Assembly (NCBI GenBank): GCA_003173865.1
Contig: PJMF01000016.1
Span: 17,347 to 81,346 of the forward strand
DNA: 64,000 bases
Direction: 5' to 3'
DNA from: Minisyncoccota bacterium
Lineage (GTDB): Bacteria > Patescibacteriota > Microgenomatia > UBA1400 > PJMF01
A model generated the notes under the pieces. That model saw nothing but the letters and a program-made list of their open reading frames with translations, searched no databases and was not told where the DNA came from. Of this stretch, positions 7,219-28,608 are shown piece by piece; position 1 is the first letter of the stretch, and each line of letters begins with the position of its first letter. A program made the position numbers and the translations under genes.

Positions 7219-7303
7219 GGGATTGGCTAAAAGATTCTTCTAAAATAAAATGCGCCGCGAAAAGTGCTTTAGCCAATCCCCTGACTCCGTTTGAGGAGTC
7301 AGG
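7219..7303. promoter_or_regulatory. two adjacent strong stem-loops: a 13 bp perfect inverted repeat (GGGATTGGCTAAA ... TTTAGCCAATCCC) plus a 9 bp-stem hairpin (CCTGACTCC-GTTTGA-GGAGTCAGG)
   Basis: Seen directly in the sequence. Located between the small Cys-motif gene pair and the helicase promoter. No U-tract follows on either strand. Confidence 0.4.
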
Positions 7304-14089: not shown

Positions 14090-14091
14090 CT

Positions 14092-15560: not shown

Positions 15561-15947
15561 ATGGCTCAAAAACCGCTTGTCTTTGTCTGTGACGATGATC
15601 AAGGAATCGTTGATTTCACCAAAATCGTTTTGGAAGAAAAGGGCTGTGAAGTCATGATTTGTTTGAACTCGGATGCTGTGCTAAAAGGCATTAAAGAGCA
15701 CACTCCACAGCTGATTTTGCTCGATTTGTGGATGCCTTCTATTGGCGGGGCGGAAACGATTAAAAAGATTCGTCACCACTTCGGTAATCATCCAATTCCG
15801 ATCATTATTTTTTCCGCTAGTAAAGAAACCGAACAGGTTGCTTTATCACTCAAAGTATCTGATTTTTTAACAAAACCGTTTGATATTGAAGAGTTAGAAA
15901 AAATAGTGGAACGTCACCTACCTGGAAATTGGAAGCTCTCGGAATGA
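15561..15947 (+). CDS. single-domain response regulator (CheY-like REC)
   Basis: DD pair (FVCDDD), phospho-acceptor D in LLDLWMP, S/T in IIFSAS, K in TKPF. Confidence 0.85.
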   Translation: MAQKPLVFVCDDDQGIVDFTKIVLEEKGCEVMICLNSDAVLKGIKEHTPQLILLDLWMPSIGGAETIKKIRHHFGNHPIPIIIFSASKETEQVALSLKVSDFLTKPFDIEELEKIVERHLPGNWKLSE

Positions 15948-16846
15948 TTTTTTTTAGTTTTCCACTCAGTGATTACTTAACGATCTTTTTTTCGATTTTG
16001 ATCGAGGCGATTCCATTTGTGACTTTGGGAGTTATTGTTTCGAGTCTCTTAACTGCATTTGTAAAAGATGAATGGTTACTAAAGATGATTCCGAAACAGA
16101 AATTCTTAGGACATCTCGTGATTGCTTTTTTTGGTTGTGTATTTCCGGTATGCGAATGTGGAAATGTGCCCGTGGCACGGCGTTTAATTGAGAAAGGTTT
16201 ACCAGTTTCACAAGCAGTGACGTTCTTGCTGGCTGCTCCTGTGATTAATCCGATTGTGATTATTTCTACTTATATAGCTTTTCGTTTTGCGCCTGAAGTC
16301 GTTGTTTTGCGCGTAGCGATTTCTTTTGTTATTGCAATTGTAACGGGCTTAGTTGTTTCATTACACAAACATCCAGAAAATTTGTTAACTGAATCTGTGG
16401 CCGAAGCGTGTCATCATCATCATGAACCGCCAAAATTTTTGAATGAAAAAATATCTGTTTTCTTGGGTACAGTCCGTCACGAAGTTTTAGAAATGACAAC
16501 TGCACTCCTTCTCGGAGCCACGATCGCGGCAATTACCACCACTTTATCAAGAGAAACGATCGTTGCCATTGCTCAGACTCCTTTGCTCGCTACACTCGCG
16601 ATGATGATCCTCGCATTGGTGATGTCTATCTGTTCAACTGTCGATGCATTTGTGGCGCTTGGTTATTTAGGGCGTTTTCCAGTGAGTGCGTTGCTTGCTT
16701 TTCTAATTTTTGGACCAATGATTGATCTTCGCGTCATTAGTATGTTGAAAACAACGTTTCGTTGGAAATTTATTTTTATGATTGTAGTTTTAGTAAGTGA
16801 GATGATTATTATTTCGTCAATTGTGCTCAATTTTTTTGGAAGATAA
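15929..16846 (+). CDS. permease of the DUF318/ArsP-like family (CxC motif)
   Basis: Polytopic membrane protein with the motif FPVCECGNVPVARRL. Translationally coupled to the following gene. Confidence 0.65.
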   Translation: MEALGMIFFSFPLSDYLTIFFSILIEAIPFVTLGVIVSSLLTAFVKDEWLLKMIPKQKFLGHLVIAFFGCVFPVCECGNVPVARRLIEKGLPVSQAVTFLLAAPVINPIVIISTYIAFRFAPEVVVLRVAISFVIAIVTGLVVSLHKHPENLLTESVAEACHHHHEPPKFLNEKISVFLGTVRHEVLEMTTALLLGATIAAITTTLSRETIVAIAQTPLLATLAMMILALVMSICSTVDAFVALGYLGRFPVSALLAFLIFGPMIDLRVISMLKTTFRWKFIFMIVVLVSEMIIISSIVLNFFGR

Positions 16847-17600
16847 GAACATGGAAAAGCAATTCAATTTACAAATAGCTTTAGAGTCTCTAACTCTGAT
16901 TGGGATTGGCATATTTTTGATGTACCTAAAAGTGAGTAATGCATTGGGATACTATGTGCGGCCCGACTATCATCTCCTTACTTTTGGCGTCGGTATTTTT
17001 TTGGTAATTGTGGGAGTCTGTAGTTCTTTTTCGTCACTTTTATACTTCAAAAATCCCAAAAAAAGTTGGAGAATTTCTATTCCTAAAGTGTGTGCGCTCA
17101 TTATTATTATTTTTATTTTATTTGTTGGAGTTGTGACACCTCGTCGCGCCTTGTCAGCTCAGTTAGCCAGTTTGCGGGGAACGAATCAGAATCTCTTAGT
17201 GGGGACACATACGAATTCGGCAGCAAGCAGCGATCAAGGGAGTCCCTTACTTCAAGCAAATAAGAGTGAGTCATACACGATAGCTGATTGGATTAGACTT
17301 TTTTCTGTTGACCCGGAGCCCGATAACTATATTGGCAAGCCTGTGAGTGTGATTGGCTTTGTTCAAGTAAACCCCAATCAAACTTTTACAGTATCTCGCT
17401 TTGTCATTACGTGTTGTGCAGTCGACGCTACCCCAATTGGTTTAGTTGTTGATCAAAAAGTGAGTGAGTTACATAGTGATGATTGGGTGCACGTGACCGG
17501 AAAATTAAAAGTGGCAACTATAAATGATAAGCGTCAAGCAGTAATAGAACCGTCTGAAGTTCAAAAAATTTCACAACCTGCAGATCCTTATCTCTATTAA
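16821..17600 (+). CDS. TIGR03943-like membrane protein, the usual partner of DUF318 permeases
   Basis: N-terminal TM helices and a C-terminal soluble domain with a CC motif (FVITCCAVDATPIG). Gene order and overlap with the permease. Confidence 0.5.
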   Translation: MCSIFLEDKNMEKQFNLQIALESLTLIGIGIFLMYLKVSNALGYYVRPDYHLLTFGVGIFLVIVGVCSSFSSLLYFKNPKKSWRISIPKVCALIIIIFILFVGVVTPRRALSAQLASLRGTNQNLLVGTHTNSAASSDQGSPLLQANKSESYTIADWIRLFSVDPEPDNYIGKPVSVIGFVQVNPNQTFTVSRFVITCCAVDATPIGLVVDQKVSELHSDDWVHVTGKLKVATINDKRQAVIEPSEVQKISQPADPYLY

Positions 17601-17607
17601 ATATTCT

Positions 17608-18984
17608 ATGTTAAAAATTAATCTCTTTTTTTTCTTTTTGACTGTATGTTTTATTTTTTTGGCTCCTTTTGCAAAACCACGAATTACAACTGTCGAAGTG
17701 AAAGAGGGAACACTACACAACGCGGAAACACTTGATCAACAAATAAAAATTACTTTTTCTCGACCGATGGATGAAAAAAGTGTCGCACAAAATGTCGAAG
17801 TATCGCCCAAGTTTGAGTACAGTACAAGTTGGGCAAACAATACATTTTTTATGACACCAAAATTGCCCTTAGTATCTGGAGAACACTACCTTTTAACTGT
17901 CCACAAAAATGTCCAGGACATCTATCAGCGTGAACTTGCGCAAGATGAAAAAATTACATTTCAGACAAAAAACTACCAGTTTGTGTATTTGAATAGAGAC
18001 AATCAACTGACAGTAAGTGGTTTCGCTCAGTCTCCCCAAGTAATTACTGATAAGAAAAATATTAAAGAATATCAAGTTAACCGTAAAAAACACTCTATTG
18101 TTTATTTTGATCAACCTACAGACGAAGGTGAAACAAATATTTTTTCATACGATTTGTTAACACAACAGACCACGCAAATTCCCAACCAATTACATGCGCG
18201 TCTTTCGAATTTGCAAATAGACGGAACAGGGGAGCAGCTTTACTTTATTGCAGATATACCCCTTGATCATCCAGATCAAGACGTTAATGGCGACCCCACT
18301 ACGACGCAAGCAAAAGTATTTCATTATGATTTGATCACGCATCAACAGAGTGAGTCTGATTTATTACAAACCTTTCCAACGTTAGTGCGTTTTTGGATTA
18401 CTCCTGAAGGAAATACATTTATGGTCAATGATTTGAGTGGTGAACTGTTTCTGCGCGCAATTAGTGGCGGAAAAAGTGTCGCGTTAGGCAAATACTCTGA
18501 TTATCGCGATGGAGATTTCCGTGGGGATAAATTAATTTTTATTGATTCATCTCAAGAATACAACTATGTGCAAGGAATTATCCTTTATGATGGAAGTACA
18601 ACTCGCATGACAGACGTGAGCGAAATTGCAGCCACACCATTTTTGAGCCTTGATGGCACTTTGATTAGTTATAGTTTTGTGCCCAAAAACTCAGCAGAAA
18701 CTGCTGGGCAAGAAGGAGTTAAAGTGATAAATATTGCAAACAAAAAAACGCTTTTTGAGAAATATGATTCCCAGTACAGCTTTGAACTGAGTAAATTGTC
18801 TGCAGACAATAAATATCTTGCAGTAGAAGAATACAATAAAGACCAGCTGAATGATTTCGTGCATATTCGCAAATATGGAGAACCAAATAAACCAGACCAA
18901 GCAAAGATAATTTTCTTTGATGTACAATCTTGGCGACCACTGCCGATGAGTATTGAGGGCAAAGAATTTCGTTGGATTAATTAA
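17608..18984 (+). CDS. secreted hypothetical protein with an N-terminal Ig-like (SbsA/Big_5-like) domain and a beta-rich C-terminus
   Basis: Signal peptide and an RPMDEKS motif in an Ig-like segment. No catalytic motifs recognised. Confidence 0.45.
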   Translation: MLKINLFFFFLTVCFIFLAPFAKPRITTVEVKEGTLHNAETLDQQIKITFSRPMDEKSVAQNVEVSPKFEYSTSWANNTFFMTPKLPLVSGEHYLLTVHKNVQDIYQRELAQDEKITFQTKNYQFVYLNRDNQLTVSGFAQSPQVITDKKNIKEYQVNRKKHSIVYFDQPTDEGETNIFSYDLLTQQTTQIPNQLHARLSNLQIDGTGEQLYFIADIPLDHPDQDVNGDPTTTQAKVFHYDLITHQQSESDLLQTFPTLVRFWITPEGNTFMVNDLSGELFLRAISGGKSVALGKYSDYRDGDFRGDKLIFIDSSQEYNYVQGIILYDGSTTRMTDVSEIAATPFLSLDGTLISYSFVPKNSAETAGQEGVKVINIANKKTLFEKYDSQYSFELSKLSADNKYLAVEEYNKDQLNDFVHIRKYGEPNKPDQAKIIFFDVQSWRPLPMSIEGKEFRWIN

Positions 18985-19655
18985 GACTTCGGTGCGGTAC
19001 AAGATACTTTATTTTGATTATTAACTTGATAAGACGGCTGAATTTGCGGATCGGTTTGCATCATTTTCCACGCGATGAGTAGTAAAGCCACAAAACTCAT
19101 CACTGTGCCAAATAAGACTGGATGCGATTGAGTTGACATTTTCTGATTTTTTGGAAGAGGACAGTTTTTATCATTACACGCAGTATTCATATCTTTTAAA
19201 AGCAACCAGAGTGATATGAGCATGATCCCCAATGAAGCTGCCTTCAGTTCCAGACCTTGAAAAGGAAAAGAAGATAATCCCCCAGCAATACCAATTAATG
19301 AAAGTATTGTTGAGCCACAGATGGGACAAGCAGACGCAAAGACACCAATCACTGCGCCAATACTGCTCCCCGAATCTGTGGTACGAAGAGGTGAACCATA
19401 CACTTGCCAACGGTACACAAGTAATGCCGTATTTGCACCGAATACACCTGCAGTAATGAGTGTAATCACCAAGTAAGAAATCAGGTACGCTGGGTTACTA
19501 AAGGTATGATGAATCAATGTAAAAAGGTCTGAGTTCATTCTGAGAACAGCATAAAAAACTAACAGGAGAGCTGTGGCCGCAGTGAAACCAATCACGATAT
19601 AAAAGAGGCACGTAGCGAAGTCGATTTGAGGAGCATGACGTTTCATTTTTGCCAT
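18981..19655 (-). CDS. polytopic membrane protein with a CPxCG motif
   Basis: Five or six TM helices. ACPICG within a TM segment and a C-terminal CNDKNC. Last gene of the glucan-metabolism operon. Confidence 0.45.
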   Translation of the reverse strand: MAKMKRHAPQIDFATCLFYIVIGFTAATALLLVFYAVLRMNSDLFTLIHHTFSNPAYLISYLVITLITAGVFGANTALLVYRWQVYGSPLRTTDSGSSIGAVIGVFASACPICGSTILSLIGIAGGLSSFPFQGLELKAASLGIMLISLWLLLKDMNTACNDKNCPLPKNQKMSTQSHPVLFGTVMSFVALLLIAWKMMQTDPQIQPSYQVNNQNKVSCTAPKS

Positions 19656-19665
19656 AATTTGCTCA

Positions 19666-20589
19666 TTATAATTTCTCTAGTGCGATATTGACAGCACCAT
19701 AAACTGGTGACTTTTCCAGAAACTTAAACTCAAGTTGCGGATAGTGGTTTTTCAATTTTTGCTGGAGGGGATCAAAAACACTTGATTGTTTTAAAATGCT
19801 TCCTGCTGCAATAACATCCATATCTATTTGGTTGAGTTCCAGTTTGTTGACCACAGTGCTGATGATAAGAAACAACTCATCAACTGTTTCGTTTATAATT
19901 TTTTTTGCAGCTTCATCTCCGTGTTCGGCTGCTATCCCACAGATTTTGGCGAGCTCTGCAATTTGTGCTTTGGAAAGAATAGGATCATAAATTTTTTCTT
20001 TCAGCCTCACAAATGAATCTGTTTGAAAATGTTGTAAGAGAAGGGTCTCTAACTCTGTTTTGGCAGCTCGACCGTCATAACTACTTGTGGCGGCGCGAAG
20101 CACTTTGCGACCGATCTCATACCCTGAACCTTCATCGGCAAGTAAAAAATCCATTCCGCTAGTTTGTGCTGTTTGTCCTTTTTGATTTCGACCAAAACAA
20201 TTTGATCCAGTACCAGCAATCACTGCCACTGCATCGGGGTGACTCGCACCTGCTGCAAGCACAAGTTCGATGTCATTGATGACTGTGAAGTCCTTCACTT
20301 CAATTTGAGTGAGTTTTTTTGAGAAAAAGTCACGAGCAAAAATAACCTCATCAGGTGTATCAACGCCTGCTAAACCAAAAACTAATGCTTCACAACTTGA
20401 GTCGGGAACGAGCTGCGAAGTGACTTGTTCTACCGCAGCGAGAAAGTTTAGTCCAGCTGTCTCTTTATCAACCGCAGACAAATTAGTAGGACCAGAAACT
20501 CCTTGTGACAAAATATTTCCTTCTTCATCAGCACAAATAACTTCAGTTTTTGTACCTCCACCATCTAAACCAAGAACATACTTCAGCAT
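19666..20589 (-). CDS. BadF/BadG/BcrA/BcrD-type ATPase, probable N-acetylglucosamine/sugar kinase
   Basis: N-terminal LGLDGGGTKTEV (ASKHA fold phosphate-1 motif) and DEGSGYEIG. Confidence 0.75.
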   Translation of the reverse strand: MLKYVLGLDGGGTKTEVICADEEGNILSQGVSGPTNLSAVDKETAGLNFLAAVEQVTSQLVPDSSCEALVFGLAGVDTPDEVIFARDFFSKKLTQIEVKDFTVINDIELVLAAGASHPDAVAVIAGTGSNCFGRNQKGQTAQTSGMDFLLADEGSGYEIGRKVLRAATSSYDGRAAKTELETLLLQHFQTDSFVRLKEKIYDPILSKAQIAELAKICGIAAEHGDEAAKKIINETVDELFLIISTVVNKLELNQIDMDVIAAGSILKQSSVFDPLQQKLKNHYPQLEFKFLEKSPVYGAVNIALEKL

Positions 20590-20610
20590 AATTTTTTACT
20601 TTCTTCGGAC

Positions 20611-22614
20611 TTATGTAGCTTTTTCAATAGGACACTGAGGACAGAGATGAAGTTCTTCTAGTTTTTCAATATACATCATGATTGTTTCGACGTATACCGC
20701 ATGGCTCCAGACTAACGGAGTAGCAGACAAAGACTTTCCTGTATCTGGATGAAGTTGCTCAGGCAACACACCTGATTGATATGCATACTTTAATACCCAG
20801 TCCAGCGTTGCTTTGACATCTTTCAACTCTTTTTCGCCAGAGCCTTTTTTCTTTAGTTGTCGTTGCACTTCCCAAAGGGTGGTGATAATCCAGGGATTGG
20901 GTTGGTCTGTTTCGGCGAAGTACTTATCGCGTTCGTAACGCACGATACCACCAACTTTTCCATTATTTCGCAATCGATTTTGCACAGCCACTTCCGTTGC
21001 AACAAAAAGTGGATCTGTTTCATCCAAAATACCAAAGTACCACAAACCAAAGAGAGTACTCGCATCTACAGTTTCATCCAAGTTAAATTGACCATTTTCT
21101 AAAAATCCGATGCGCACAAAACTATTTAATTTATTACTAAATAAATATTTTTTCGTTGCCACTTGAATTTCTTTTGCGACGTCTCGGTAGTCACGCATGT
21201 GATTGCGTTTGCCTAACATTTCTGAAAAATTGGCAGCAGCAATCAGCGCTCCGTAAACAGATGCTGCGGTATAGGTTGATACGCCAATCTTTTCTTCCCA
21301 TAAATCATACGAATGAAGTGGTAAACCAGTTTCCTTATCGCGAAAAGCGACTAAGAAATTTGCCATTTTTTCAATACAGGGTTTGTAGTATGCTTCAATA
21401 AACTCAATATCTTTGGTGTATTGATAATGTTTCCACAAAGCGAATAAAACGGAAGCGGTTTCATCTTCTTGAATGGGCAACTGAAGAATTTTATCTTTCA
21501 GCCATTCTTTCTGTGCTGTGGTGGAGTGCCAGGTTGAACCTAAACTTTCATCACAACGAAAACGATGATGTAAGTAACCATCTGGGTGCAAAACATTTTG
21601 GCAAAACTTAAAAAATGGTTTCGTTGCTTCATCATAACCGGCACGATCAAGAGTCATCACGATGTACGCAGCATCACGCGGCCACATATATGAGTAGTCA
21701 TCTTTGCCATACTCCATCATTTCAGAGTCTGCAGATGCGATAATACTTCCTTCGTTATCAGTATGAGCGCGCAAAATAAATAATGATGTATCAAACATTT
21801 TTTTCTGTTCAGGTGAGAGCGTATCTGTGTGTAAATTCCGTTTATTAATCCATGCGTTCCAAAATTGCTCAGTTGAATAAATCATGTGAGAAGGTTGTTT
21901 TTCTAGAACGAGTTGATTTAAGCTATACGCTTCATCGAGTGATTTTCCCGCGCAGATCCAGTAAAAAAGTGTGTTTTTCACTTTACCGTCACACTTCAAA
22001 GAAAAGCGGACGACAGAATCAACTGATCCATGCTCGACGGCATTTTTAGTTAACTTACCATCTTCTGCATCACGGAATGTTCCTTCTTTCCCATCGTAAT
22101 CAAATAAACCAACAGAGTAATCATCGATGCCTACACCTTCGCTTGTTTGACCATTTACGATAAATACACGGCGCCCTTTGTAATGCACGACTGCTTGGTG
22201 AGTAGGATCGTAAAAACCGGTATTACGTTTTTGGTTTTCACTAATCATGAATTCTTGACCAAAAAATACCTTGACATCAATACATCCTTCGGAGTGATTG
22301 TAGACATCAATTTTACGCAGAAAAACATTTTTTTCGTTGTACACAATGTCTTCCATGACCAACGTGAGTTGTAATTTTTCGTTTTTGCAAATCAGTTGAC
22401 CAACCATCGTTTCTGGTTTGTAACCAATTGTGATATTCCACGAACCGTCATTGAGCCAAGAAAATGTGGTGTTTACCATCACGCCGATGCGATGTGTCTT
22501 GCCGACGACATGGTTTTCAAGGCCGACGTATGGATAGTACATATCGCGGACAAAGCCATATTTATCAAGCGAAACTAGCATTGATCCGTTACTTAAGATG
22601 AGTGCTCGTGACAT
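20611..22614 (-). CDS. glycoside hydrolase family 15 (glucoamylase/trehalase-like) with an N-terminal beta-sandwich domain
   Basis: N-terminal LSNGSMLVSLDKYGFVRDMYYPYVG typical of bacterial/archaeal GH15. Alpha/alpha-toroid region with WEEK..GVSTYT. Confidence 0.8.
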   Translation of the reverse strand: MSRALILSNGSMLVSLDKYGFVRDMYYPYVGLENHVVGKTHRIGVMVNTTFSWLNDGSWNITIGYKPETMVGQLICKNEKLQLTLVMEDIVYNEKNVFLRKIDVYNHSEGCIDVKVFFGQEFMISENQKRNTGFYDPTHQAVVHYKGRRVFIVNGQTSEGVGIDDYSVGLFDYDGKEGTFRDAEDGKLTKNAVEHGSVDSVVRFSLKCDGKVKNTLFYWICAGKSLDEAYSLNQLVLEKQPSHMIYSTEQFWNAWINKRNLHTDTLSPEQKKMFDTSLFILRAHTDNEGSIIASADSEMMEYGKDDYSYMWPRDAAYIVMTLDRAGYDEATKPFFKFCQNVLHPDGYLHHRFRCDESLGSTWHSTTAQKEWLKDKILQLPIQEDETASVLFALWKHYQYTKDIEFIEAYYKPCIEKMANFLVAFRDKETGLPLHSYDLWEEKIGVSTYTAASVYGALIAAANFSEMLGKRNHMRDYRDVAKEIQVATKKYLFSNKLNSFVRIGFLENGQFNLDETVDASTLFGLWYFGILDETDPLFVATEVAVQNRLRNNGKVGGIVRYERDKYFAETDQPNPWIITTLWEVQRQLKKKGSGEKELKDVKATLDWVLKYAYQSGVLPEQLHPDTGKSLSATPLVWSHAVYVETIMMYIEKLEELHLCPQCPIEKAT

Positions 22615-23837
22615 AATCTACTTTCCATGTCAGCGACGACGGCGCTGAATCTGTTGTACGCTTCAAATGGTGAGTCATAAGGACTGAAGTATTTATGAAC
22701 ATCACCATCGGCTGACCATTTCACACACATATAATAAAAGTGATCACTGGTTTGTAAACGACGCCAATCCTCAATTAATTTTTGATCGTTTGAAGATAAC
22801 ACTTTATCTTCGAGACTGTAAATGAGACGGAGTGTGTCATGTTGAAGTGAGTTTCCGCGCCAAGCTGTTAAGTCGCGATCTACATCTGCCCAGGAAATTG
22901 GTTCCGGGACATCGTAGGTAGGGTAAATGGTAGAGGGGTTAGGGGACAGGTGTTGTTGGTGCTGTAGAATTTCTAAGTAAGGCAATGCGGCAACGACGCT
23001 TGGTTTGACAAACGTTTGGTCCGGCCTTTTACTTGCTTCGTGTACGACGGTCTTGAAAAAATTAAAAATGCCAGTGTCTTCCCACTGATGTTCACCAAAT
23101 GTTTCAAAATCCATAAAAAGATTAATCAGCTCTCCTGGCAAAAAACTGTCAAGCCAATAAAGATATTTTTCTGCAGTGAGAGGATGCTCAAACCAATTTT
23201 TATCTGAAAAACGGAATGCAACGTCATCAGAAAGTTGAGCATGCTTCAGTAAAACAGGAATTGCTGGTTTACTGTGAGAAATAAAGAGTTGAGCACGAGA
23301 GCGACCGTGCAAGTATCTTTCAACACCTTCAGTCAGTATTCCAATAAAACCAAGTTTTGCGACTTTCGCTGCAATATCGTTTGAGTAAATCAGCTCAGTG
23401 TTACGAAAAACTTTGGGTGTCACCGAAAATAATTTTTGGATGAGTCTAGTGTGCTGACGGACCTGGCTCACAAACTCATCAAGAGAATAAAGACTTGATA
23501 GAGAGTGATAGTACGTTTCTGAGAGCAATTCTACTTGGCTAGTTGAGACAAGTTGTTGAATTAATTCAATGACTCTGGGTTCAAAAGCCAGTGCTTGTTC
23601 GAGAAAAATTCCTGAGCACGAGAGAGCAAAAATAAACTTCGGGACTTCTTGTGTTAACTCATAAAGTAATGACAACATGGGCACATATGATTTTTGCGCA
23701 ACTTTGCTAAAAATTGCTTGATTCGTATTTCTGTCGTCAACAAAATAATTTTTTTCACTTTCGGTTAAATCAAAAACAGAAAAATTTCGCAGACGATACG
23801 GCTGGTGAAGCTGGAAATAAAAACACAGTTGTGCCAT
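22593..23837 (-). CDS. glycoside hydrolase family 57-like protein
   Basis: N-terminal FYFQLHQPYR motif characteristic of GH57. A DFETFGEH segment is also present. Confidence 0.6.
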   Translation of the reverse strand: MAQLCFYFQLHQPYRLRNFSVFDLTESEKNYFVDDRNTNQAIFSKVAQKSYVPMLSLLYELTQEVPKFIFALSCSGIFLEQALAFEPRVIELIQQLVSTSQVELLSETYYHSLSSLYSLDEFVSQVRQHTRLIQKLFSVTPKVFRNTELIYSNDIAAKVAKLGFIGILTEGVERYLHGRSRAQLFISHSKPAIPVLLKHAQLSDDVAFRFSDKNWFEHPLTAEKYLYWLDSFLPGELINLFMDFETFGEHQWEDTGIFNFFKTVVHEASKRPDQTFVKPSVVAALPYLEILQHQQHLSPNPSTIYPTYDVPEPISWADVDRDLTAWRGNSLQHDTLRLIYSLEDKVLSSNDQKLIEDWRRLQTSDHFYYMCVKWSADGDVHKYFSPYDSPFEAYNRFSAVVADMESRLCHEHSS

Positions 23838-23839
23838 GA

Positions 23840-25093
23840 CTATTGTGCTCCAGTGATAAGATCATGGTAAACATTGCGAATACCTTGAGCGGATCTTTCC
23901 CACGTTGCTTCTTTTAAATTTTCGTTTTGACCACGCATCACTTGCTGACGGTAATCTTGATTTGTAATCAGTTTGACAATTTCATCGCGCATTTTATTGA
24001 TATCCCAGAAATCAACTTGGATGGAGTTAGACATAATTTCTCTCACACCAGAGTTTGTGGAAACGATGACCGGCGTATGCCGTTGAGCAGCTTCAAGTGC
24101 AACTAAGCCAAAAGGTTCTGACAGTGAGGGCATCACAAAAACATCCGCCCGATCAAGTAAAACTTCGCGTTGGCGATCACGGATAAAGCCAGTGAAAAGG
24201 ACAGAAGCAGAGAGATGCTGGTCGGCGTTTCTCAGAAGTAAGTAGTGGTATTGATCTCCGCTGCCCGCTACCACAAAAAGCGCTTCGGGAATTTTCTGCA
24301 GTACACTATTTGCGAGCTCAATAAAATACTCCGCGCCTTTTTGCGCAGTGAGACGCCCCATGAAAACGATCACTGGTCTATTTGCCGCAAAGTGAGAACT
24401 CAGCGATGGAGTAATAGGTGAAACTCCATTGTGAACGACTACAATTTTGCTTGGATCGACAAAGTATTTATCAATTAACATTTTTTTAGTGAAGTGGCTT
24501 ACTGCAATGACTTTGTTTGCTTGTTGCAAACCCATGTACTCTGTGTGTGCAATGTAGTGACTCCCGTGGCCACTGGGAATACGGTCAAACTCAGTAGAGT
24601 GGACGTGCGCAATAAATGGTTTTCCTAAGTTGGCTTGAATCTTCATTGCAGCTGGAAAAGACATCCAGTCATGGGCGTGTACAACGGAGTAATCATCAGA
24701 TAATTTTTTGCTCTCACTGAGCACTTTTTCCGCGTACTCATTTACTTGGTGTTCCATTTCGGATTGAGCAAGTGAAGAGAGTTCTATCGGGGAAGTTGAT
24801 GAAGAAAACTTAATTGGTGCAGAGTTCACTGAACTATATGTTGAAAATGGTGGTGCTGCGCGAAACTGTCCAGAATCATCACTTTGACAGTGAATGACTT
24901 TCATGTGAGTTACTGCTTGTGGATGCAGATATGGAAGGGTGAAGTAAATTTGTGTATTTTGTTGAGAAAGTGCTTCGGTCATACCTTGGCAGGCAATACC
25001 TAAGCCACCACTGTTATGTGGCGGATATTCCCAACCAATCATGAAGACGCGTTGTTGTATTCCGTCCATGACATTACCCAAAATATATGTCAC
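23840..25093 (-). CDS. glycogen-synthase-like GT-B glycosyltransferase (GT4/GT5)
   Basis: N-terminal WEYPPHNSGGLGIACQGMTEAL, paralleling the E.P..K.GGL motif of GlgA-type enzymes. C-terminal FVMPSLSEPFGLVALEAAQRHTPVIV. Confidence 0.75.
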   Translation of the reverse strand: MTYILGNVMDGIQQRVFMIGWEYPPHNSGGLGIACQGMTEALSQQNTQIYFTLPYLHPQAVTHMKVIHCQSDDSGQFRAAPPFSTYSSVNSAPIKFSSSTSPIELSSLAQSEMEHQVNEYAEKVLSESKKLSDDYSVVHAHDWMSFPAAMKIQANLGKPFIAHVHSTEFDRIPSGHGSHYIAHTEYMGLQQANKVIAVSHFTKKMLIDKYFVDPSKIVVVHNGVSPITPSLSSHFAANRPVIVFMGRLTAQKGAEYFIELANSVLQKIPEALFVVAGSGDQYHYLLLRNADQHLSASVLFTGFIRDRQREVLLDRADVFVMPSLSEPFGLVALEAAQRHTPVIVSTNSGVREIMSNSIQVDFWDINKMRDEIVKLITNQDYRQQVMRGQNENLKEATWERSAQGIRNVYHDLITGAQ

Positions 25094-25095
25094 TT

Positions 25096-25809
25096 TCAGT
25101 GTAGAATAATCGAGAGGATGAATGCAAGACTAAATCCCAAGAAACTACCGCCAATTACATCGCTGAGCCAATGTTCACCTAAACTGATTCTGGATAAAAA
25201 CATAATGAAATAGAACAAAAAGTATCCTGCACAAAAAAGCAGTTTTTTTTGTTGAGAAAATTGCTTCTTTTTACTTTGCAAAGTTACGAAACTCACAATT
25301 ACAAAAACGAATGCAGCTCTCATTGCGTGACCTGATGGATACGAGTTTCCAGTTTCGGCAAATGAGCTAGGAAAGAAAAAAGAAAAGGTGTTGCGAAAAA
25401 AAACCAATGGCGGCGAGGGATGGTGAAAAAATGTTTTTCCAAAAAGTTCGAATAGGTGACCAGCTCCATACAGGAAAAAAAGAAAAATGCGATGAACATT
25501 ATTTTTGAGTTTCCATAATGCAAAGAAAATGAGAAATACGGTAACCACTTCAAAACTGCCAATAAGACTCAGAAGAGAAAAAAATGGATCCACGCGTCGA
25601 GGAATGAGCTGTTGAAGATGTACAGTCATTTTGAGATCAATACTTGCGAGAAAATTCTTCCCAACTAAAAAACTACAGAGTATAAATGCGCAAAAAAAAG
25701 CTATCCCAACTAAGGCATAATGAAAAGACAATTGATCTCTCTTATGAATCATGATGATTCCTTTTGATGGATGTGCAGATAACCCAAAAGAGTTCCCGTC
25801 AGTGCCCAA
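25096..25809 (-). CDS. PAP2 family membrane phosphatase
   Basis: YPSGHAMRA (PAP2 motif 2) and a later SRISLGEHWLSDV (motif 3). Confidence 0.7.
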   Translation of the reverse strand: MGTDGNSFGLSAHPSKGIIMIHKRDQLSFHYALVGIAFFCAFILCSFLVGKNFLASIDLKMTVHLQQLIPRRVDPFFSLLSLIGSFEVVTVFLIFFALWKLKNNVHRIFLFFLYGAGHLFELFGKTFFHHPSPPLVFFRNTFSFFFPSSFAETGNSYPSGHAMRAAFVFVIVSFVTLQSKKKQFSQQKKLLFCAGYFLFYFIMFLSRISLGEHWLSDVIGGSFLGFSLAFILSIILH

Positions 25810-27179
25810 AAACTAAACGCAACTTTCGAAGCAGCAAACACATCAATTAAGACGGCATTCGCAAGTAAACCACTGATGATTCCAAGATACGCAATGCTGA
25901 ATGAATCATGTATTTTTTTCTTCGCAATCAGGACCGCACGGCCAATAATGGCAAAAAAAGCTACAAAACCAAGTACACCAGTCTCACCTAAAATGCGCAA
26001 ATAATTATTATCAACGCCATCGGCTTCGGCGAGATGATTAAAATCTCTTTTATTCAAAGTGGAAAATCCTGATCCCAGAAAGGGTTGACGCAAAAATCCT
26101 TTTATAGCTTGCGGCCAAAGTGACTCTAAGCGAATGCACAGCGAAATTTCTTTTTCTTTTGCGCAGCCAGAAAGTTGCTGAGGCTGTGCAGGTAGAGTTT
26201 CCGAAGGTAAACGATCTGCTTCATCGCGCGGAACGGGCAGTACATACTGAGAAATAATTGGCTGAGTTACATTTTGCGAGTTTCCGGAAAAAAACACTCC
26301 GCCCACTGCGTGTTCAAGTAAAGCTGAAAGATTGCTGCCAAAACTTACAAAAAATATTGTGGTAAGCACGCTGACAAAGGCGATGCGCAAAGCGAGCAGC
26401 TTGAATTTACTTTGTAACTTTCTTTCGCGCCAAAGAAATAAAAGGATGACCAGCCCAGTTGCGAGTAGATAACTCAGAAATGCACTGCGTAACCCACTGA
26501 CAATTAAGCTCCACAAAGCCATGCAGTAAATAACTGTCAAAATAACTTGATGTTTTCGTCGCGAAGCAGTAAAAAGTAAGACAGTTATGAGAGGTAAAAT
26601 TAAAACCATAAAAATTGCAAAATCATAATGTCCAGCAAAAGTTGATTGAACACGTGCATATGGACTCGCGAGTTCAAGTGGAATTCCAGAACTGAACTCC
26701 CAGTTCATCGTGGAGTAAACTGGCCAACGGAAGTATTTTTGACCTGCACCATACAGAGTAGTAGCGATCACTGCAACCAAGAAACACGAAATGAGAAACT
26801 GTGCATGTCCTTTTTTTTGAATTGCAGAATATGTAAAAAAGAACAATGAAAAATACTCCGTATATCTTAATAAATGAAGAAAGGCTTTTGCAATATGCAC
26901 TGGTAAAATGGGGATTGTTTTGATCAAGAAAAGTGCGGAGAGCAAGGAAAGTAAACCAATGAGAAGATAAGCACCGATAAAAATATTCAACGGAGTTTTG
27001 TAAGATATCTTTTTTCTTGCGAGCGCAATGAGCCAAATGATGCCAGTTACTCCAATGATCACATCCTCTACTCGAACGCGCACAATATAGCCTGGAATAG
27101 GCTGAAACAATGGAATTTTAGGCCACACGGGAATGAAGATAATCAAAAAACCGGTGAGGAAAAGCAGAAGTTTTTTCAT
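25749..27179 (-). CDS. O-antigen ligase/Wzy_C-like polytopic membrane protein
   Basis: About 10 to 12 TM helices with a large loop toward the C-terminal third. First gene of the long minus-strand operon. Confidence 0.5.
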   Translation of the reverse strand: MKKLLLFLTGFLIIFIPVWPKIPLFQPIPGYIVRVRVEDVIIGVTGIIWLIALARKKISYKTPLNIFIGAYLLIGLLSLLSALFLIKTIPILPVHIAKAFLHLLRYTEYFSLFFFTYSAIQKKGHAQFLISCFLVAVIATTLYGAGQKYFRWPVYSTMNWEFSSGIPLELASPYARVQSTFAGHYDFAIFMVLILPLITVLLFTASRRKHQVILTVIYCMALWSLIVSGLRSAFLSYLLATGLVILLFLWRERKLQSKFKLLALRIAFVSVLTTIFFVSFGSNLSALLEHAVGGVFFSGNSQNVTQPIISQYVLPVPRDEADRLPSETLPAQPQQLSGCAKEKEISLCIRLESLWPQAIKGFLRQPFLGSGFSTLNKRDFNHLAEADGVDNNYLRILGETGVLGFVAFFAIIGRAVLIAKKKIHDSFSIAYLGIISGLLANAVLIDVFAASKVAFSFWALTGTLLGYLHIHQKESS

Positions 27180-27200
27180 AAGCTATCCGGAGTTACGTGA

Positions 27201-27268
27201 TTTTCAAGAGACGATGATCGCACCAAAGTATCTGCAAGTGCTCACACAGCTCTCAAGTCTCTTGAAAA
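27201..27268. promoter_or_regulatory. 12 bp perfect inverted repeat (TTTTCAAGAGAC ... GTCTCTTGAAAA) in the divergent promoter region
   Basis: Arms at 27201-27212 and 27257-27268, 44 nt apart, between the divergent genes at 27179(-) and 27325(+). A putative TTGTAA-16-TATACT promoter for the + gene lies just downstream. Confidence 0.35.
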
Positions 27269-27324
27269 CCACGAACTCCTGCTAAGTTGTAAAGCGCATC
27301 AAGTATTATATACTCCAAGACGAG

Positions 27325-28608
27325 ATGAAAAAATCGCTCTTTCACACAGTAGAGTTTGGATTTCTCTTAGTCATGATGGTTCTTTTTATTTTTTTGCGCT
27401 CACTCCATTTTGCACAATTTCTTAATTTTTCAGCTGATCAAGCGACTTTTTCGCTCAAGGCACTAGAAATTTGGCGAAATAAATCACTTGTACTTATCGG
27501 TCCTACGTTTTCTTTAAATGCGTTTGGGCGTTACGCTTTTCAAGGACCGGCAATTTATTACGTACAACTTTTCTTTTTACTCATTGGGAATTTTGATCCA
27601 GTGAAAACGTCATTTTTCTTCATGCTGTTTGCCAGCGTCATGACTTGGCCGCTGTATTATGGAGTGAAGTGGTTAAGCGGGAAAAAGGTTGCGGCCTTCA
27701 TCGTGATGTGCTACGTAACACTACCATTTTTCATCGACTACAGCCGTTTTCTCTGGAATCCCAACTTTCAATTTGTTTTGTCGCCATTTTTAATTTTAGC
27801 AATGGGCTGGTGTGCTCAAAAAATGAGTGCGTTACGATTTTTTTTAGTAGCAGTTATTGCTGGATTTTTACTTCAGTTTCATTACCAATTTGTCTTGGTT
27901 TTATTGGGATTATTTTTTTATTATTTTGTACAAAAAAAGTTACAGTGGCGTTACATTTTGCTGTGGATATGTGGAGTGATGATTGGATTTTTTCCATTGA
28001 TTCTGTTTGAGCTTCGTCATCAATTTTATAATACGCAAACGATTTTTCTTTTGGTTACTTCTTTTTTCCATCACTTTGATACTCAATCGAAACTTCATTT
28101 TGCATTTGCGCCTCATTATGTTTTGAGTGTTTCCTTTTTTCTTTTAGTAAGTGTCTCAACGATGTTAAAAAAATATCTTTCAAGTTTGGTGATCACGACC
28201 AGTGCAGTCATTTTGATTACTCTCTCTTTACTCCGATATTTCCCAACTCCTACTCACGCATTTGGGATGGTTGATGACTGGAATTACTCAAATGAACAAA
28301 AAATTGCTCAAGTTATCCAGAGTGAAAATATCTCCAACTTTAACGTCGTGAACCTGATTTATGACACCGATGCAGCTGTGCAGCGATACTTGCTTGTGAT
28401 AAACAATCAAGAAAATAAACTCGGTGATTATCAACACGAGCATTTTCTTTTTGTTGTGTATGGAGACGATGAACTTACTAAAACTCAGGCGTACGAAGTA
28501 AAAACTTTTGCTCCGTACACTCTGAAAAAGAAGTGGCAAATAAATTCCAAGTATACTCTGGCTTTACTAGAACATGCTCCTTCATACGGCAAGATACTGT
28601 TTGAGTAG
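27325..28608 (+). CDS. polytopic membrane protein, possibly a GT-C (ArnT/PMT-like) glycosyltransferase
   Basis: At least 10 TM helices. Assignment is weak and based on topology only. Confidence 0.4.
   Translation: MKKSLFHTVEFGFLLVMMVLFIFLRSLHFAQFLNFSADQATFSLKALEIWRNKSLVLIGPTFSLNAFGRYAFQGPAIYYVQLFFLLIGNFDPVKTSFFFMLFASVMTWPLYYGVKWLSGKKVAAFIVMCYVTLPFFIDYSRFLWNPNFQFVLSPFLILAMGWCAQKMSALRFFLVAVIAGFLLQFHYQFVLVLLGLFFYYFVQKKLQWRYILLWICGVMIGFFPLILFELRHQFYNTQTIFLLVTSFFHHFDTQSKLHFAFAPHYVLSVSFFLLVSVSTMLKKYLSSLVITTSAVILITLSLLRYFPTPTHAFGMVDDWNYSNEQKIAQVIQSENISNFNVVNLIYDTDAAVQRYLLVINNQENKLGDYQHEHFLFVVYGDDELTKTQAYEVKTFAPYTLKKKWQINSKYTLALLEHAPSYGKILFE

What the first reader, a model, noticed from the sequence alone, without database searches (positions are those of the whole stretch)
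18981..27268. Eight-kilobase minus-strand operon combining alpha-glucan metabolism with membrane glycoconjugate genes
The gene order is Wzy/O-antigen-ligase-like, PAP2 phosphatase, glycogen-synthase-like GT, GH57, GH15, BadF-type sugar kinase and a CPxCG membrane protein. Intergenic gaps are only 0 to 20 nt and several genes overlap. GH57 plus a GlgA-like GT plus GH15 is the archaeal-style glycogen or trehalose toolkit, and its presence is typical of reduced-genome, CPR-like bacteria. Coupling it to a Wzy-like polymerase and a PAP2 lipid phosphatase suggests the glucan may be lipid-linked or exported rather than purely cytoplasmic storage. A 12 bp perfect inverted repeat (27201-27212 and 27257-27268) in the divergent promoter is a candidate operator.
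Basis: partly seen in the sequence, partly recalled or inferred. Interest (0 to 1): 0.5.

Follow-up and report, generated by a model that had tools for sequence, protein, structure and literature searches.

The report
CPR glycogen module beside envelope genes
A widely conserved four-gene set for building and consuming an internal glycogen-like sugar store in a tiny 'candidate phyla radiation' bacterium sits in one gene string with unrelated cell-envelope genes. That link is not conserved, so this looks like an ordinary storage module and not a new surface-glucan pathway.

Summary
Seven tightly packed minus-strand genes (18981-27179) encode Wzy_C, PAP2, a GlgA/GlgM-like GT4, GH57, GH15, a BadF-type sugar kinase and a CPxCG membrane protein, and an inverted repeat lies upstream.

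GT4-GH57-GH15-kinase is a conserved cytoplasmic alpha-glucan module. The GT4-GH57 pair is adjacent, usually with 0-9 nt gaps or 4-nt overlaps, in about 30 Patescibacteria and DPANN loci. Elsewhere the module is followed by PGI, by G6PD/6PGD/6PGL/ROK kinase, or by GAPDH/PGK. All four proteins lack transmembrane or signal-like segments.

Wzy, PAP2 and CPxCG are not part of the module. They are absent from its flanks in more than 40 loci. In the closest relative (69-80% identity, broadly syntenic) Wzy is divergent from the GT, so co-transcription here reflects a local rearrangement. No flippase or initiating transferase lies nearby.

The GH57 matches the fingerprint of the 414-aa 'alpha-amylase' subfamily. 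A recent review suspects that subfamily of being a missing branching enzyme.

The repeat is really a ~23-bp stem and is non-random, but it is unconserved and unexplained.

Verdict: a new member of a known, biochemically uncharacterised module. Low to moderate interest.

The parts
23840..25069 (-). GT4 glycosyltransferase, GlgA/GlgM-like (putative alpha-1,4-glucan synthase). The ATG start at 25069 is the one used by the public gene call; an alternative GTG lies at 25093.
   Evidence: Pfam Glycos_transf_1, Glyco_transf_4 and Glyco_transf_5. Best PDB matches are GlgM 6TVP (4e-17) and Pyrococcus GlgA (1e-12). The EX7E motif (EPFGLVALE) and an N-terminal GGLG are present. The identical 409-aa protein P0121 exists, and homologues are named 'glycogen synthase' by JGI. 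No TM segment.
22593..23837 (-). GH57 enzyme of the ~414-aa 'alpha-amylase' subfamily. It acts on alpha-glucan as a hydrolase or transferase, possibly as a branching enzyme.
   Evidence: Pfam GH57, 202 bits. E148 and D243 are invariant in 32 and in 38 homologues. E148 aligns with the TLGT nucleophile region WLTE. The AF2 model has pLDDT 84.7, and the top Foldseek hits are all GH57. The fingerprints Q-x-HQP, R at the start of CSR-3, T in CSR-4 and YY at the end of CSR-5 match PMC6037648.
20611..22614 (-). GH15 glucoamylase-type exo-hydrolase (oligosaccharide-amylase-like).
   Evidence: Pfam GH15, 104 bits. TIGR01577 matches full length at 353 bits, below its 820 cutoff. It follows GH57 directly in 15 loci with gaps of -8 to 28 nt. 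No TM segment.
19666..20589 (-). BadF/BadG-type ASKHA sugar kinase, the inferred glucose (hexose) kinase of the module.
   Evidence: Pfam BcrAD_BadFG, 130 bits. PDB matches: MurK 8ZO3 (1e-44) and S. tokodaii hexokinase 2E2N (5e-20). It is conserved directly after GH15 in L001, L003, L004, L005, L044, L047 and the P0123 contig. A ROK kinase takes this role in L040.
25749..27179 (-). Wzy_C-family (O-antigen ligase / polymerase / O-oligosaccharyltransferase-like) membrane protein with ~10 TM-like segments. An envelope gene, not part of the conserved glucan module.
   Evidence: Pfam Wzy_C, 53 bits. TM count. Homologues lie next to the module only in L044/L045 (58% identity, opposite strand) and L004 (36% identity, convergent, 3 kb downstream).
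25096..25752 (-). PAP2 membrane phosphatase, probably a lipid or undecaprenyl-diphosphate phosphatase. Its ATG overlaps the Wzy stop codon (ATGA).
   Evidence: Pfam PAP2, 62 bits. The PSGH and SRx5Hx3D motifs are present, and the Arg of KX6RP is replaced. Best PDB match is B. subtilis YodM/PgpB at 1e-7. A 44%-identical homologue lies next to Wzy in L044/L045.
18981..19655 (-). CPxCG membrane protein with 5 TM-like segments. It is lineage-specific, its function is unknown, and it is not part of the conserved module.
   Evidence: No Pfam or NCBIfam hit. Only 4 homologues were found. It is absent from L044 and all other module loci. In L048 its homologue sits two genes upstream of a MauE gene, not next to a kinase.
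27189..27281 (.). Long inverted repeat / hairpin (~23-bp stem, 44-nt loop) in the 145-nt divergent intergenic region. It ends 10 nt upstream of the Wzy start codon.
   Evidence: No Rfam match. Unique in the window and in the 47 loci held. No counterpart in L044.
27325..28608 (+). Divergent neighbour: a PMT_2 (GT-C fold) membrane glycosyltransferase. Together with Wzy_C and PAP2 it forms an envelope-glycosylation gene group.
   Evidence: Pfam PMT_2, 27 bits. 7 TM-like segments. Absent from L044.

Best explanation
The 8.2-kb gene string is a composite of two unrelated units.

The core (19666-25069) is a conserved cytoplasmic alpha-glucan (glycogen-like) turnover module of Patescibacteria. The proposed steps are:
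1. A GlgA/GlgM-like GT4 elongates alpha-1,4-glucan from an NDP-glucose.
2. A GH57 of the short 'alpha-amylase' subfamily, whose gene is translationally coupled to the GT gene, remodels the chains by endo-cleavage or transfer, possibly branching.
3. A GH15 glucoamylase-type enzyme releases glucose.
4. A BadF-type kinase phosphorylates the glucose for glycolysis or the pentose-phosphate pathway.

The flanking membrane-protein genes are a separate matter. Wzy_C plus PAP2 lie upstream and CPxCG lies downstream. Wzy_C and PAP2 are envelope genes, plausibly a glycan ligase or polymerase with a lipid-pyrophosphate phosphatase. They came to lie co-directionally with the module through a lineage-specific rearrangement. 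They may be co-transcribed in this genome but do not act on the glucan.

What is shown: the domain families, catalytic residues, fold, gene order, conservation pattern and lack of export signals. What is inferred: substrates, donor nucleotide, the branching-versus-amylase role, and co-transcription.
For: Conservation of the module:
- Among 36 GTDB species loci anchored on GH57, the GT lies directly upstream in nearly all, GH15 follows in about half, and the BadF kinase follows in the closest clade.
- The GT-to-GH57 junction is 9 nt or less, or a 4-nt overlap, in 19 of 27 loci.

Downstream partners elsewhere are cytoplasmic sugar catabolism:
- PGI in L004
- GAPDH-PGK-PfkB-DeoC in L038
- G6PD-6PGD-6PGL-ROK in L040

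Upstream partners elsewhere are housekeeping or unrelated genes: Fpg-TruB in L001, L046 and L047, and an iron permease or thioredoxin in L004 and L005.

The GT, GH57, GH15 and kinase have no TM-like or signal-like segment.

The closest relative, L044, is syntenic over ~19 kb. It has PAP2(+) Wzy(-) | GT(+), so Wzy is divergent there, and it lacks CPxCG and PMT2.

A Wzy homologue of 56% identity (L037) is followed by UvrD. phmmer found no PAP2, PMT2 or CPxCG homologue in the 43 loci held at that point.

Literature:
- GT4+GH57 clusters occur in archaea, and a Sulfolobus GH57 mutant has lowered glycogen (PMC11046441).
Against: - In this genome the packing is operon-like: an ATGA overlap between Wzy and PAP2, only 2-26 nt between PAP2 and the GT, and no terminator-like site between them.
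- Wzy and PAP2 are neighbours of the GT in the one closely related genome as well, despite rearrangement. L004 has Wzy/PMT_2/GT2 genes 1.5-5 kb downstream. A loose association in this lineage therefore cannot be excluded.
- No NDP-glucose pyrophosphorylase, phosphoglucomutase, GlgB or GlgP is present in the 64-kb window, so self-sufficient synthesis is unproven.
- The kinase's best structural relative is a MurNAc/GlcNAc kinase, not a glucokinase.
- No enzyme of this GT4 clade or this GH57 clade has been characterised.
Confidence: 0.75

Rival explanations
1. The seven genes form one functional pathway in which the alpha-glucan made by the GT is assembled on or transferred to a lipid carrier, polymerised or ligated by the Wzy_C protein outside the membrane, with PAP2 recycling the carrier. 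The product would be a surface or exported glucan.
For: - The genes are co-directional, with an ATGA overlap and 2-26 nt gaps.
- Wzy and PAP2 stay next to the GT in the closest relative, L044.
- L004 has Wzy/PMT_2/GT2 genes near the module.
- From my own knowledge: mycobacterial capsular alpha-glucan is made by cytoplasmic GlgA/GlgM-type enzymes and exported by an unknown route.
Against: - The Wzy orientation is not conserved; it is divergent in L044/L045.
- Wzy and PAP2 are absent from the module's flanks in more than 40 other loci.
- No Wzx-type flippase and no initiating phosphoglycosyl transferase occurs in the annotated window.
- The GT, GH57, GH15 and kinase are soluble and lack signal sequences.
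- The recurring partners of the module are glycolysis and PPP enzymes.
Confidence: 0.08
2. A catabolic-only reading. GH57, GH15 and the kinase digest alpha-glucan or maltodextrin scavenged from a host or the environment, as most metagenome papers annotate GH57. The GT4 would make something other than a storage glucan, for example a glycolipid, a compatible solute or a wall glycan.
For: - Published MAG surveys read GH57 and GH15 in CPR and DPANN as starch or amylose degradation (PMC9868632, PMC8421398 and PMC11606122).
- CPR are episymbionts with reduced biosynthesis.
- No NDP-glucose-forming enzyme is in the window.
- Some sources name GT homologues 'glycosyltransferase involved in cell wall biosynthesis'.
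Against: - GH57 and GH15 have no signal peptide, and no sugar transporter is in the module.
- The GT is the most tightly linked partner of GH57: 4-nt overlaps, conserved even where GH15 is absent.
- The GT's nearest characterised relatives are GlgM and GlgA.
- In Sulfolobus, loss of the GH57 lowers glycogen instead of raising it (PMC11046441).
Confidence: 0.12
3. The product is not glycogen but a short, modified alpha-1,4-oligoglucan comparable to mycobacterial methylglucose lipopolysaccharide, which is made by a GT4 (Rv3032), a GH57 (Rv3031) and a methyltransferase (Rv3030).
For: - A SAM-methyltransferase gene overlaps the kinase stop codon in L001, L003 and L047 and follows GH15 in L046.
- The GT's best PDB relative is a mycobacterial GT4, GlgM.
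- The mycobacterial cluster composition is recalled from my own knowledge and was not tested here.
Against: - The methyltransferase is absent from the window and from L044, and it is confined to one clade.
- The methyltransferase near the module in L040 did not match that of L001 in the tblastn search (E <= 1e-3).
- GH15 and a hexose kinase fit bulk glucose release better.
Confidence: 0.04
4. On the inverted repeat only: it is a protein-binding operator pair that controls the divergent Wzy and PMT_2 promoters.
For: - The arms flank a weak sigma-70-like promoter for the minus strand. Its -35 (27256-27251) abuts the right arm and its -10 is at 27232-27227. The right end of the extended stem (27281) lies just upstream of a plus-strand -35 at 27287.
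- The full stem is far beyond chance.
Against: - The promoter-like hits are no more frequent than in shuffles.
- The arms are 61 bp apart centre to centre.
- The motif occurs nowhere else in the window or in the 47 loci held.
- No regulator gene is adjacent.
- No counterpart is found in the intergenic region upstream of Wzy in L044 or in the stretch upstream of its PAP2.
- It sits at a synteny breakpoint, so it could equally be a 5'-UTR hairpin that sequesters the region next to the Wzy ribosome-binding site, or the remnant of a rearrangement or miniature mobile element.
Confidence: 0.25

Closest known systems
Archaeal glycogen gene clusters (Sulfolobus acidocaldarius glycogen synthase / GH57 amylase / GH15 glucoamylase / GH133; Picrophilus torridus GT4 + GH57 + GH133), as reviewed in PMC11046441
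   Same: The enzyme set is the same: a GT-B glucan synthase, a GH57 'amylase' and a GH15 glucoamylase, clustered, cytoplasmic, and without GlgC, GlgB or GlgP in the cluster. The open question about the GH57 role is also the same.
   Different: The host here is bacterial (Patescibacteria). The synthase is a GT4, not a GT5. A BadF-type kinase takes the place of a GH133 debranching enzyme. Sequence relatedness to the Sulfolobus proteins was not tested here because their sequences were not retrievable.
GH57 'alpha-amylase' subfamily (Methanocaldococcus jannaschii type; average length 414 aa) as defined by sequence fingerprints in PMC6037648
   Same: Length is 414 aa. The catalytic Glu (CSR-3) and Asp (CSR-4) are present. 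Arg replaces the Trp that begins CSR-3 in other GH57 subfamilies. Thr occupies logo position 23. CSR-5 ends in Tyr-Tyr. The residue before x-HQP is Gln.
   Different: Only one member of that subfamily has been characterised, and only for hydrolysis. No solved structure exists: the nearest PDB entries are TLGT, the branching enzymes and the amylopullulanases, at 10-15% identity and TM 0.6-0.67.
Mycobacterial GlgM (alpha-maltose-1-phosphate synthase, GT4; PDB 6TVP) and Pyrococcus abyssi GlgA (GT5)
   Same: These are the best solved relatives of the GT (65 and 51 bits). They share the GT-B fold families, the EX7E motif and a Gly-rich N-terminal loop.
   Different: The match covers mainly residues 135-409. 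The TIGR02149 score is 99 bits against a cutoff of 302, so the GT is not a member of the GlgM equivalog. No GlgE partner is present.
Wzy-dependent or WaaL/PglL-type envelope glycan assembly with an undecaprenyl-diphosphate phosphatase (PAP2 type, e.g. PgpB/YodM)
   Same: A Wzy_C-domain polytopic membrane protein is translationally coupled to a PAP2 phosphatase. A GT-C (PMT_2) gene is divergent.
   Different: No flippase, initiating transferase or chain-length regulator is nearby. The Wzy_C score is modest at 53 bits, and no solved relative was found. The PAP2 C1 motif lacks the conserved Arg.

Membership tests
GH57 | Pfam/CAZy-type sequence match to the family | tested here: met
   PF03065 at 201.6 bits (cutoff 21.2), covering residues 6-280.
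GH57 | Catalytic nucleophile Glu (CSR-3) and proton donor Asp (CSR-4) | tested here: met
   E148 (FRNTEL) and D243 (FMDFETFGEH) are invariant in 32 and in 38 homologues. E148 aligns with the WLTER region of TLGT.
GH57 | (beta/alpha)7 barrel followed by a helical bundle | tested here: met
   The AF2 model has pLDDT 84.7 and pTM 0.89. The top 21 Foldseek PDB hits are all GH57 enzymes, with probability 1.00 and TMq 0.57-0.67.
GH57 alpha-amylase subfamily (Janecek fingerprints) | Arg (or Glu), not Trp, at the start of CSR-3; Thr at logo position 23; Tyr-Tyr at the end of CSR-5; average length ~414 aa | tested here: met
   R145, T246, Y368-Y369 and a length of 414 aa, compared with the description in PMC6037648. 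The comparison is with the published text, not with the logo files.
GH57 glycogen branching enzyme | Sequence and length of the characterised GBEs (~520-550 aa; Trp at CSR-3; Leu at position 23) | tested here: not met
   A profile search of PDB gives TT1467, PhGBE and AmyC only at E 0.06-0.7. The fingerprints differ. Branching activity itself was not testable.
Glycogen synthase (GlgA-type GT-B, GT4/GT5) | GT-B fold domains with EX7E and N-terminal Gly-rich motifs, and closest characterised relatives that are glucan synthases | tested here: met
   PF00534, PF13439 and PF08323. EPFGLVALE and GGLG motifs. GlgM and GlgA are the top PDB matches.
Glycogen synthase (GlgA-type GT-B, GT4/GT5) | Curated equivalog score (TIGR02095 glgA; TIGR02149 glgA_Coryne) | tested here: not met
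   71 bits against a cutoff of 328, and 99 bits against a cutoff of 302.
Glycogen synthase (GlgA-type GT-B, GT4/GT5) | Processive alpha-1,4 elongation from ADP- or UDP-glucose | not testable with these tools
   Requires an enzyme assay.
GH15 glucoamylase / oligosaccharide amylase | Family match and full-length architecture | tested here: met
   PF00723 at 104 bits. TIGR01577 aligns residues 12-647 to model positions 1-612 of 616 at 353 bits, below the 820 equivalog cutoff.
BadF/BadG ASKHA sugar kinase | Family match, N-terminal DGGGTK phosphate loop, and kinase relatives | tested here: met
   PF01869 at 130 bits. The LDGGGTKT motif is present. MurK matches at 1e-44 and StHK hexokinase at 5e-20. 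Sugar specificity was not testable.
Wzy-dependent / O-antigen-ligase-type glycan pathway acting on the glucan | Wzy_C-domain polytopic membrane protein | tested here: met
   PF04932 at 53 bits (cutoff 31.7) and ~10 TM-like segments.
Wzy-dependent / O-antigen-ligase-type glycan pathway acting on the glucan | Companion flippase (Wzx) and initiating phosphoglycosyl transferase in the locus | tested here: not met
   None was found among the window ORFs scanned against Pfam (most of those of 100 aa or more up to 53.4 kb).
Wzy-dependent / O-antigen-ligase-type glycan pathway acting on the glucan | Conserved linkage of Wzy/PAP2 with the GT-GH57 module | tested here: not met
   Linkage is present only in L044/L045, where the orientation is divergent. 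It is absent in more than 40 other loci.
PAP2 lipid phosphatase | Three-motif signature KX6RP / PSGH / SRX5HX3D | tested here: inconclusive
   PSGH and SRISLGEHWLSD are present. The C1 motif has K-x6-SP, so the Arg is missing, and the L045 homologue lacks it too. Pfam PAP2 scores 62 bits.
Single operon (seven genes) | Co-directional genes with short gaps and no internal terminator | tested here: met
   Gaps range from -22 to 26 nt. No terminator-like site lies at any junction.
Single operon (seven genes) | One transcript | not testable with these tools
   Needs RNA-seq or RT-PCR across the PAP2-GT and kinase-CPxCG junctions.

The most novel reading that the evidence does not exclude
In this particular Patescibacteria lineage (the window and L044) the otherwise cytoplasmic GT4-GH57-GH15 glucan module has been recruited next to a Wzy_C/PAP2 pair. 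Part of the alpha-glucan would be handed to the envelope as a surface or lipid-linked glucan, a route to capsular alpha-glucan not described in any organism.

A second, more probable but less exotic reading (about 0.3): the translationally coupled GT4 plus short GH57 'alpha-amylase' is a minimal synthase and branching-enzyme pair. That would be the 'missing branching enzyme' of prokaryotes that lack GlgB.
Probability: 0.07. Interest if true: 0.6.

Novelty: new member of a known kind. Interest (0 to 1): 0.25.

Why it matters
This finding corrects a tempting over-reading. In gene-dense CPR genomes, co-directional and even overlapping genes need not share a function, and comparative context separates a real module from its neighbours.

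The module itself is very widespread: at least 8000 GH57 and at least 6700 GT homologues, spread across CPR bacteria and DPANN archaea. It is routinely annotated as 'starch degradation'. Yet its tightest and most conserved link is between a synthase and the GH57.

That pattern supports the idea that these ultra-small cells make their own storage glucan. It also supports the suggestion that the short GH57 works on the anabolic side, possibly in branching. One recombinant enzyme pair would be enough to test this.

Tried and rejected
- **Exact-sequence look-ups.** Look-ups of the window's GH57 and of P0121 (the exact GT) found no contig, so the rest of the source genome (an 85-kb NCBI contig) could not be inspected for glgC, glgB or glgP.
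- **PDB search with the GH57.** The single-sequence search found nothing. A profile was needed.
- **First structure job.** It was redone with database proteins.
- **Wzy-anchored metagenome scan.** It gave only one locus, L037. That locus showed UvrD downstream of Wzy, not PAP2 or the GT.
- **Methyltransferase (MGLP-like) idea.** The methyltransferase is confined to one clade and is absent from the window, so the idea is kept only as a low-probability rival.
- **Promoter and terminator scans.** They found fewer sites than shuffled controls, so they say nothing about transcription units.
- **Rfam.** No match for the hairpin or anywhere else in the window. No tRNAs were found.
- **The IR motif as a repeated operator.** No further copies exist in the window beyond chance or in the loci.
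- **CPxCG as part of the module.** Rejected: it has only 4 homologues and none is next to a kinase.
- **PAP2 as a glucose-6-phosphatase analogue.** There is only a weak G6PC1 hit at E 3e-4, and PAP2 is not conserved with the module, so this was not pursued.

Full report
**Observation**

The window has about 40% G+C. Between 18981 and 27179 it carries seven co-directional minus-strand ORFs.

| Coordinates | Family | Score |
|---|---|---|
| 25749-27179 | Wzy_C | 53 bits |
| 25096-25752 | PAP2 | 62 bits |
| 23840-25069/25093 | GT-B glycosyltransferase: Glycos_transf_1, Glyco_transf_4, N-terminal starch-synthase domain Glyco_transf_5 | 103 / 73 / 43 bits |
| 22593-23837 | GH57 | 202 bits |
| 20611-22614 | GH15 (TIGR01577 'oligosaccharide amylase', full length) | 104 bits (353 bits, below the equivalog cutoff) |
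| 19666-20589 | BadF/BadG-type kinase | 130 bits |
| 18981-19655 | Family-less membrane protein with 5 TM-like segments and a CPICG motif | none |

The junctions are -4 nt (ATGA), 26 nt (2 nt with the alternative GTG), 2 nt, -22 nt, 21 nt and 10 nt.

**Whose genome**

A GH57-anchored scan of one genome per GTDB species returned 36 loci. All come from Patescibacteria (CPR) bacteria and DPANN archaea (Woesearchaeota, Nanoarchaeota, Pacearchaeota), plus some MAGs with obviously placeholder names. The window is therefore a Patescibacteria contig. The identical GT protein (P0121) is on record from an 85-kb NCBI contig, but its DNA could not be retrieved.

**What is conserved**

tblastn of the window's proteins against these loci shows three levels of conservation:
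- A GT homologue lies directly upstream of GH57 in nearly every locus long enough to show it.
- GH15 lies directly downstream in about half, mostly bacterial ones.
- The BadF kinase follows GH15 in the closest clade (L001, L003, L004, L005).

The GT-to-GH57 junction is a 4-nt overlap or a gap of at most 9 nt in 19 of 27 loci. The GH57-to-GH15 gaps run from -8 to 28 nt.

The window's Wzy, PAP2, PMT_2 and CPxCG proteins behave differently. In the 43 loci held at that point they found no homologue by tblastn or phmmer, with two exceptions. One is a 36%-identical Wzy in L004, which lies about 3 kb downstream of the kinase on the opposite strand. The other is L037, which was itself fetched with the Wzy query.

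**What accompanies the module elsewhere**

Gene tables with Pfam families give these contexts:
- Fpg-TruB-GT-GH57-GH15-(BadF)-methyltransferase in L001, L046 and L047.
- GT-GH57-GH15-BadF-PGI, then convergent PMT-Wzy_C-GT2, in L004.
- GT-GH57-x-ParA-x-GH15-GAPDH-PGK-PfkB-GH15-DeoC in L038.
- GT-GH57-x-GH15-G6PD-6PGD-6PGL-ROK kinase in L040.
- GT-GH57-x-GH15 in L042.

The recurring functional partners are a hexose kinase (BadF or ROK, a non-orthologous replacement) and the entry enzymes of glycolysis or the pentose-phosphate pathway. The GT, GH57, GH15 and kinase of the window have no hydrophobic segment or signal-like N-terminus. Together this points to a cytoplasmic cycle: make an alpha-glucan, then turn it back into glucose-6-phosphate.

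**The closest relative settles the coupling question**

A search with the GT found nothing closer than 69% identity in 5.8 billion proteins, apart from the protein itself. The 69% hit, P0122, lies on a 60.8-kb JGI contig (L044, with a shorter copy L045). That contig is syntenic with the window over about 19 kb. Shared genes are the E1-E2 ATPase, Pyr_redox, two unnamed genes and the polysaccharide deacetylase on one side, and Big_5, DUF1980, ArsP_1 and Acyl_transf_3 on the other.

L044 does have PAP2 (44% identity) and Wzy (58% identity) next to the GT. The arrangement, however, is PAP2(+) Wzy(-) | GT(+). Wzy is transcribed away from the GT across a 170-bp intergenic region, and PAP2 is separated from the GT by the antisense Wzy gene. 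L044 has neither the CPxCG gene nor PMT_2 nor the aminotransferase.

The neighbourhood is thus inherited within this small lineage, but the co-directional 'operon' arrangement in the window results from local rearrangement. From the other side, a 56%-identical Wzy homologue (L037) is followed by UvrD.

The window also lacks a Wzx flippase and an initiating phosphoglycosyl transferase. I therefore conclude that the Wzy/PAP2-to-glucan coupling is not supported. Wzy_C and PAP2 do stay together in both genomes. That fits their being a small envelope unit of their own, with a glycan ligase, polymerase or O-oligosaccharyltransferase releasing a lipid pyrophosphate that PAP2 dephosphorylates. This last point is inference from general knowledge of these families.

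**The enzymes**

*GH57.* No PDB sequence matches the single protein. A profile of 32 homologues reaches Thermococcus litoralis 4-alpha-glucanotransferase (1e-8), and E148 falls on its nucleophile motif. The branching enzymes and AmyC appear only at E 0.06-0.7. E148 and D243 are invariant. An AlphaFold model (pLDDT 84.7, pTM 0.89) matches only GH57 structures at the top of a Foldseek PDB search: TLGT, TT1467, PhGBE, AmyC and the amylopullulanases, at TMq 0.57-0.67 and 10-15% identity.

The published subfamily fingerprints (PMC6037648) define the 'alpha-amylase' subfamily by four features:
- an average length of 414 aa;
- Arg instead of Trp at the start of CSR-3;
- Thr at logo position 23;
- Tyr-Tyr at the end of CSR-5.

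The window protein is 414 aa and has R145-N-T-E148, T246 and Y368-Y369, so it belongs to that subfamily. Only one member of the subfamily has been characterised. A 2024 review (PMC11046441) makes three relevant points. This subfamily is kept in all archaea that lack a classical branching enzyme. A Sulfolobus acidocaldarius GH57 mutant has less glycogen, not more. GT4 genes clustered with GH57 may be uncharacterised glycogen synthases.

*GT.* Its best solved relatives are mycobacterial GlgM (GT4) and Pyrococcus GlgA. It has the EX7E motif and a Gly-rich N-terminal loop. It scores far below the curated glgA equivalog cutoffs.

*Kinase.* It is closest to the MurNAc/GlcNAc kinase MurK (1e-44) and to the broad-specificity hexokinase of Sulfolobus tokodaii (5e-20). 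Glucose as its substrate is inferred from context only.

[quoted passage not shown] Most MAG papers read GH57 simply as starch degradation.

**The inverted repeat**

The 12-bp perfect repeat is real, but on its own it is not unusual: 0.52 such spaced repeats are expected per shuffled window, and 42% of shuffles contain at least one. It is, however, the core of a much longer structure. The arms are 17 nt with one mismatch. As RNA, the stem runs for about 23 bp (27189-27212 / 27257-27281) with a 44-nt loop, at dG -49.7 kcal/mol and z = -3.9, and no shuffle out of 200 folds as well.

It ends 10 nt before the Wzy start codon. It has no Rfam match. It is unique in the window and in the 47 loci held. 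It has no counterpart upstream of Wzy in L044. It lies exactly where synteny with L044 breaks.

It could be an operator pair, a leader hairpin, or a scar or miniature element left by the rearrangement. I cannot decide among these, and I give the operator reading about 0.25.

**Verdict**

The stretch is a composite. It holds an ordinary, very widespread but biochemically uncharacterised CPR/DPANN alpha-glucan module (GT4, GH57 'alpha-amylase', GH15, hexose kinase), placed by rearrangement in line with lineage-specific envelope genes. The exported or lipid-linked glucan idea does not.

Novelty: a new member of a known kind. Interest: 0.25. The most useful lead is the universal, translationally coupled GT4-GH57 pairing. 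It argues that the short GH57 acts on the synthetic side, and it makes the 'missing branching enzyme' hypothesis directly testable with two recombinant proteins.

Noticed in passing
L040:9372-9752, L042:9251-9589, L038:9286-9597 and 10344-10658; also L007, L009-L011, L015, L017, L020-L022, L024, L026, L027, L030: One or two small ORFs (~100-125 aa; weak DUF5752 match, 24 bits in the best case, otherwise no Pfam family) sit immediately after GH57 in many DPANN and CPR loci. They lie between GH57 and GH15 where GH15 is present. The window and its closest clade lack them. They are an unrecognised conserved component of the GT4-GH57 module.
   Followed up: partly
L001:14154-14795, L003 ~14141-14776, L047:14375-15019, L046:13581-14225: A SAM-dependent methyltransferase gene overlaps the stop codon of the BadF kinase (or follows GH15) in one Patescibacteria clade. 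The GT4 + GH57 + methyltransferase combination recalls the mycobacterial methylglucose-lipopolysaccharide cluster (recalled from memory). It is absent from the window.
   Followed up: partly
window 12845-15547 (+): A second GT4 (414 aa) with a Glyco_transf_5-like N-terminus and a weak Glycogen_syn hit. It is followed by a short His_Phos_1 phosphatase (162 aa) and an Acyl_transf_3 membrane acyltransferase. This may be a separate glycoside or solute synthesis unit.
   Followed up: no
window 7219-7240 / 7259-7280: The only other spaced inverted repeat with a perfect 12-nt core in the window (22-nt arms, 82% complementary, 18-nt spacer). It lies just upstream of the start of the minus-strand DEAD-box helicase gene (5851-7086), in the gap before the next plus-strand ORF (7539).
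   Followed up: no
window 18981-19655 (-); L048:757-1530: The CPxCG membrane protein is very rare: 4 homologues in the 5.8-billion-protein collection, one of them 91% identical on a 1.1-kb contig. In L048 its homologue sits two genes upstream of a MauE-family gene, which hints at a thiol-redox membrane role.
   Followed up: partly
window 15929-18984 (+) and L044:14795-17879: ArsP_1 permease, DUF1980 and a Big_5 surface protein form a conserved three-gene string in both the window and its closest relative. This string is convergent on the glucan module.
   Followed up: no
window 25096-25752 (-): Besides B. subtilis YodM/PgpB (1e-7), the PAP2 protein weakly matches human glucose-6-phosphatase G6PC1 over most of its length (E 3e-4). 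The Arg of the KX6RP motif is missing in both it and its L045 homologue.
   Followed up: no
L040:53-5800: A Cas12a (Cpf1)-Cas4-Cas1-Cas2 locus lies just upstream of the glucan module on a contig whose GH57 cluster is annotated as Candidatus Yonathbacteria. A second contig with the same module (L041) has different genes in that position.
   Followed up: no
alignment A1 (GH57 of L001-L036): In a rough NJ tree the Woesebacteria/Patescibacteria sequences L006 and L008 nest among Woesearchaeota sequences. Bacterial and archaeal GH57s are about equally distant from the window (44-50% identity). This suggests inter-domain transfer of the GT4-GH57 pair between CPR and DPANN.
   Followed up: partly
window 44883-45527 (+): A 214-aa protein combines an HTH_25 DNA-binding domain with a Glucodextran_B-type domain (37 bits). 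This is an unusual pairing of unknown meaning.
   Followed up: no
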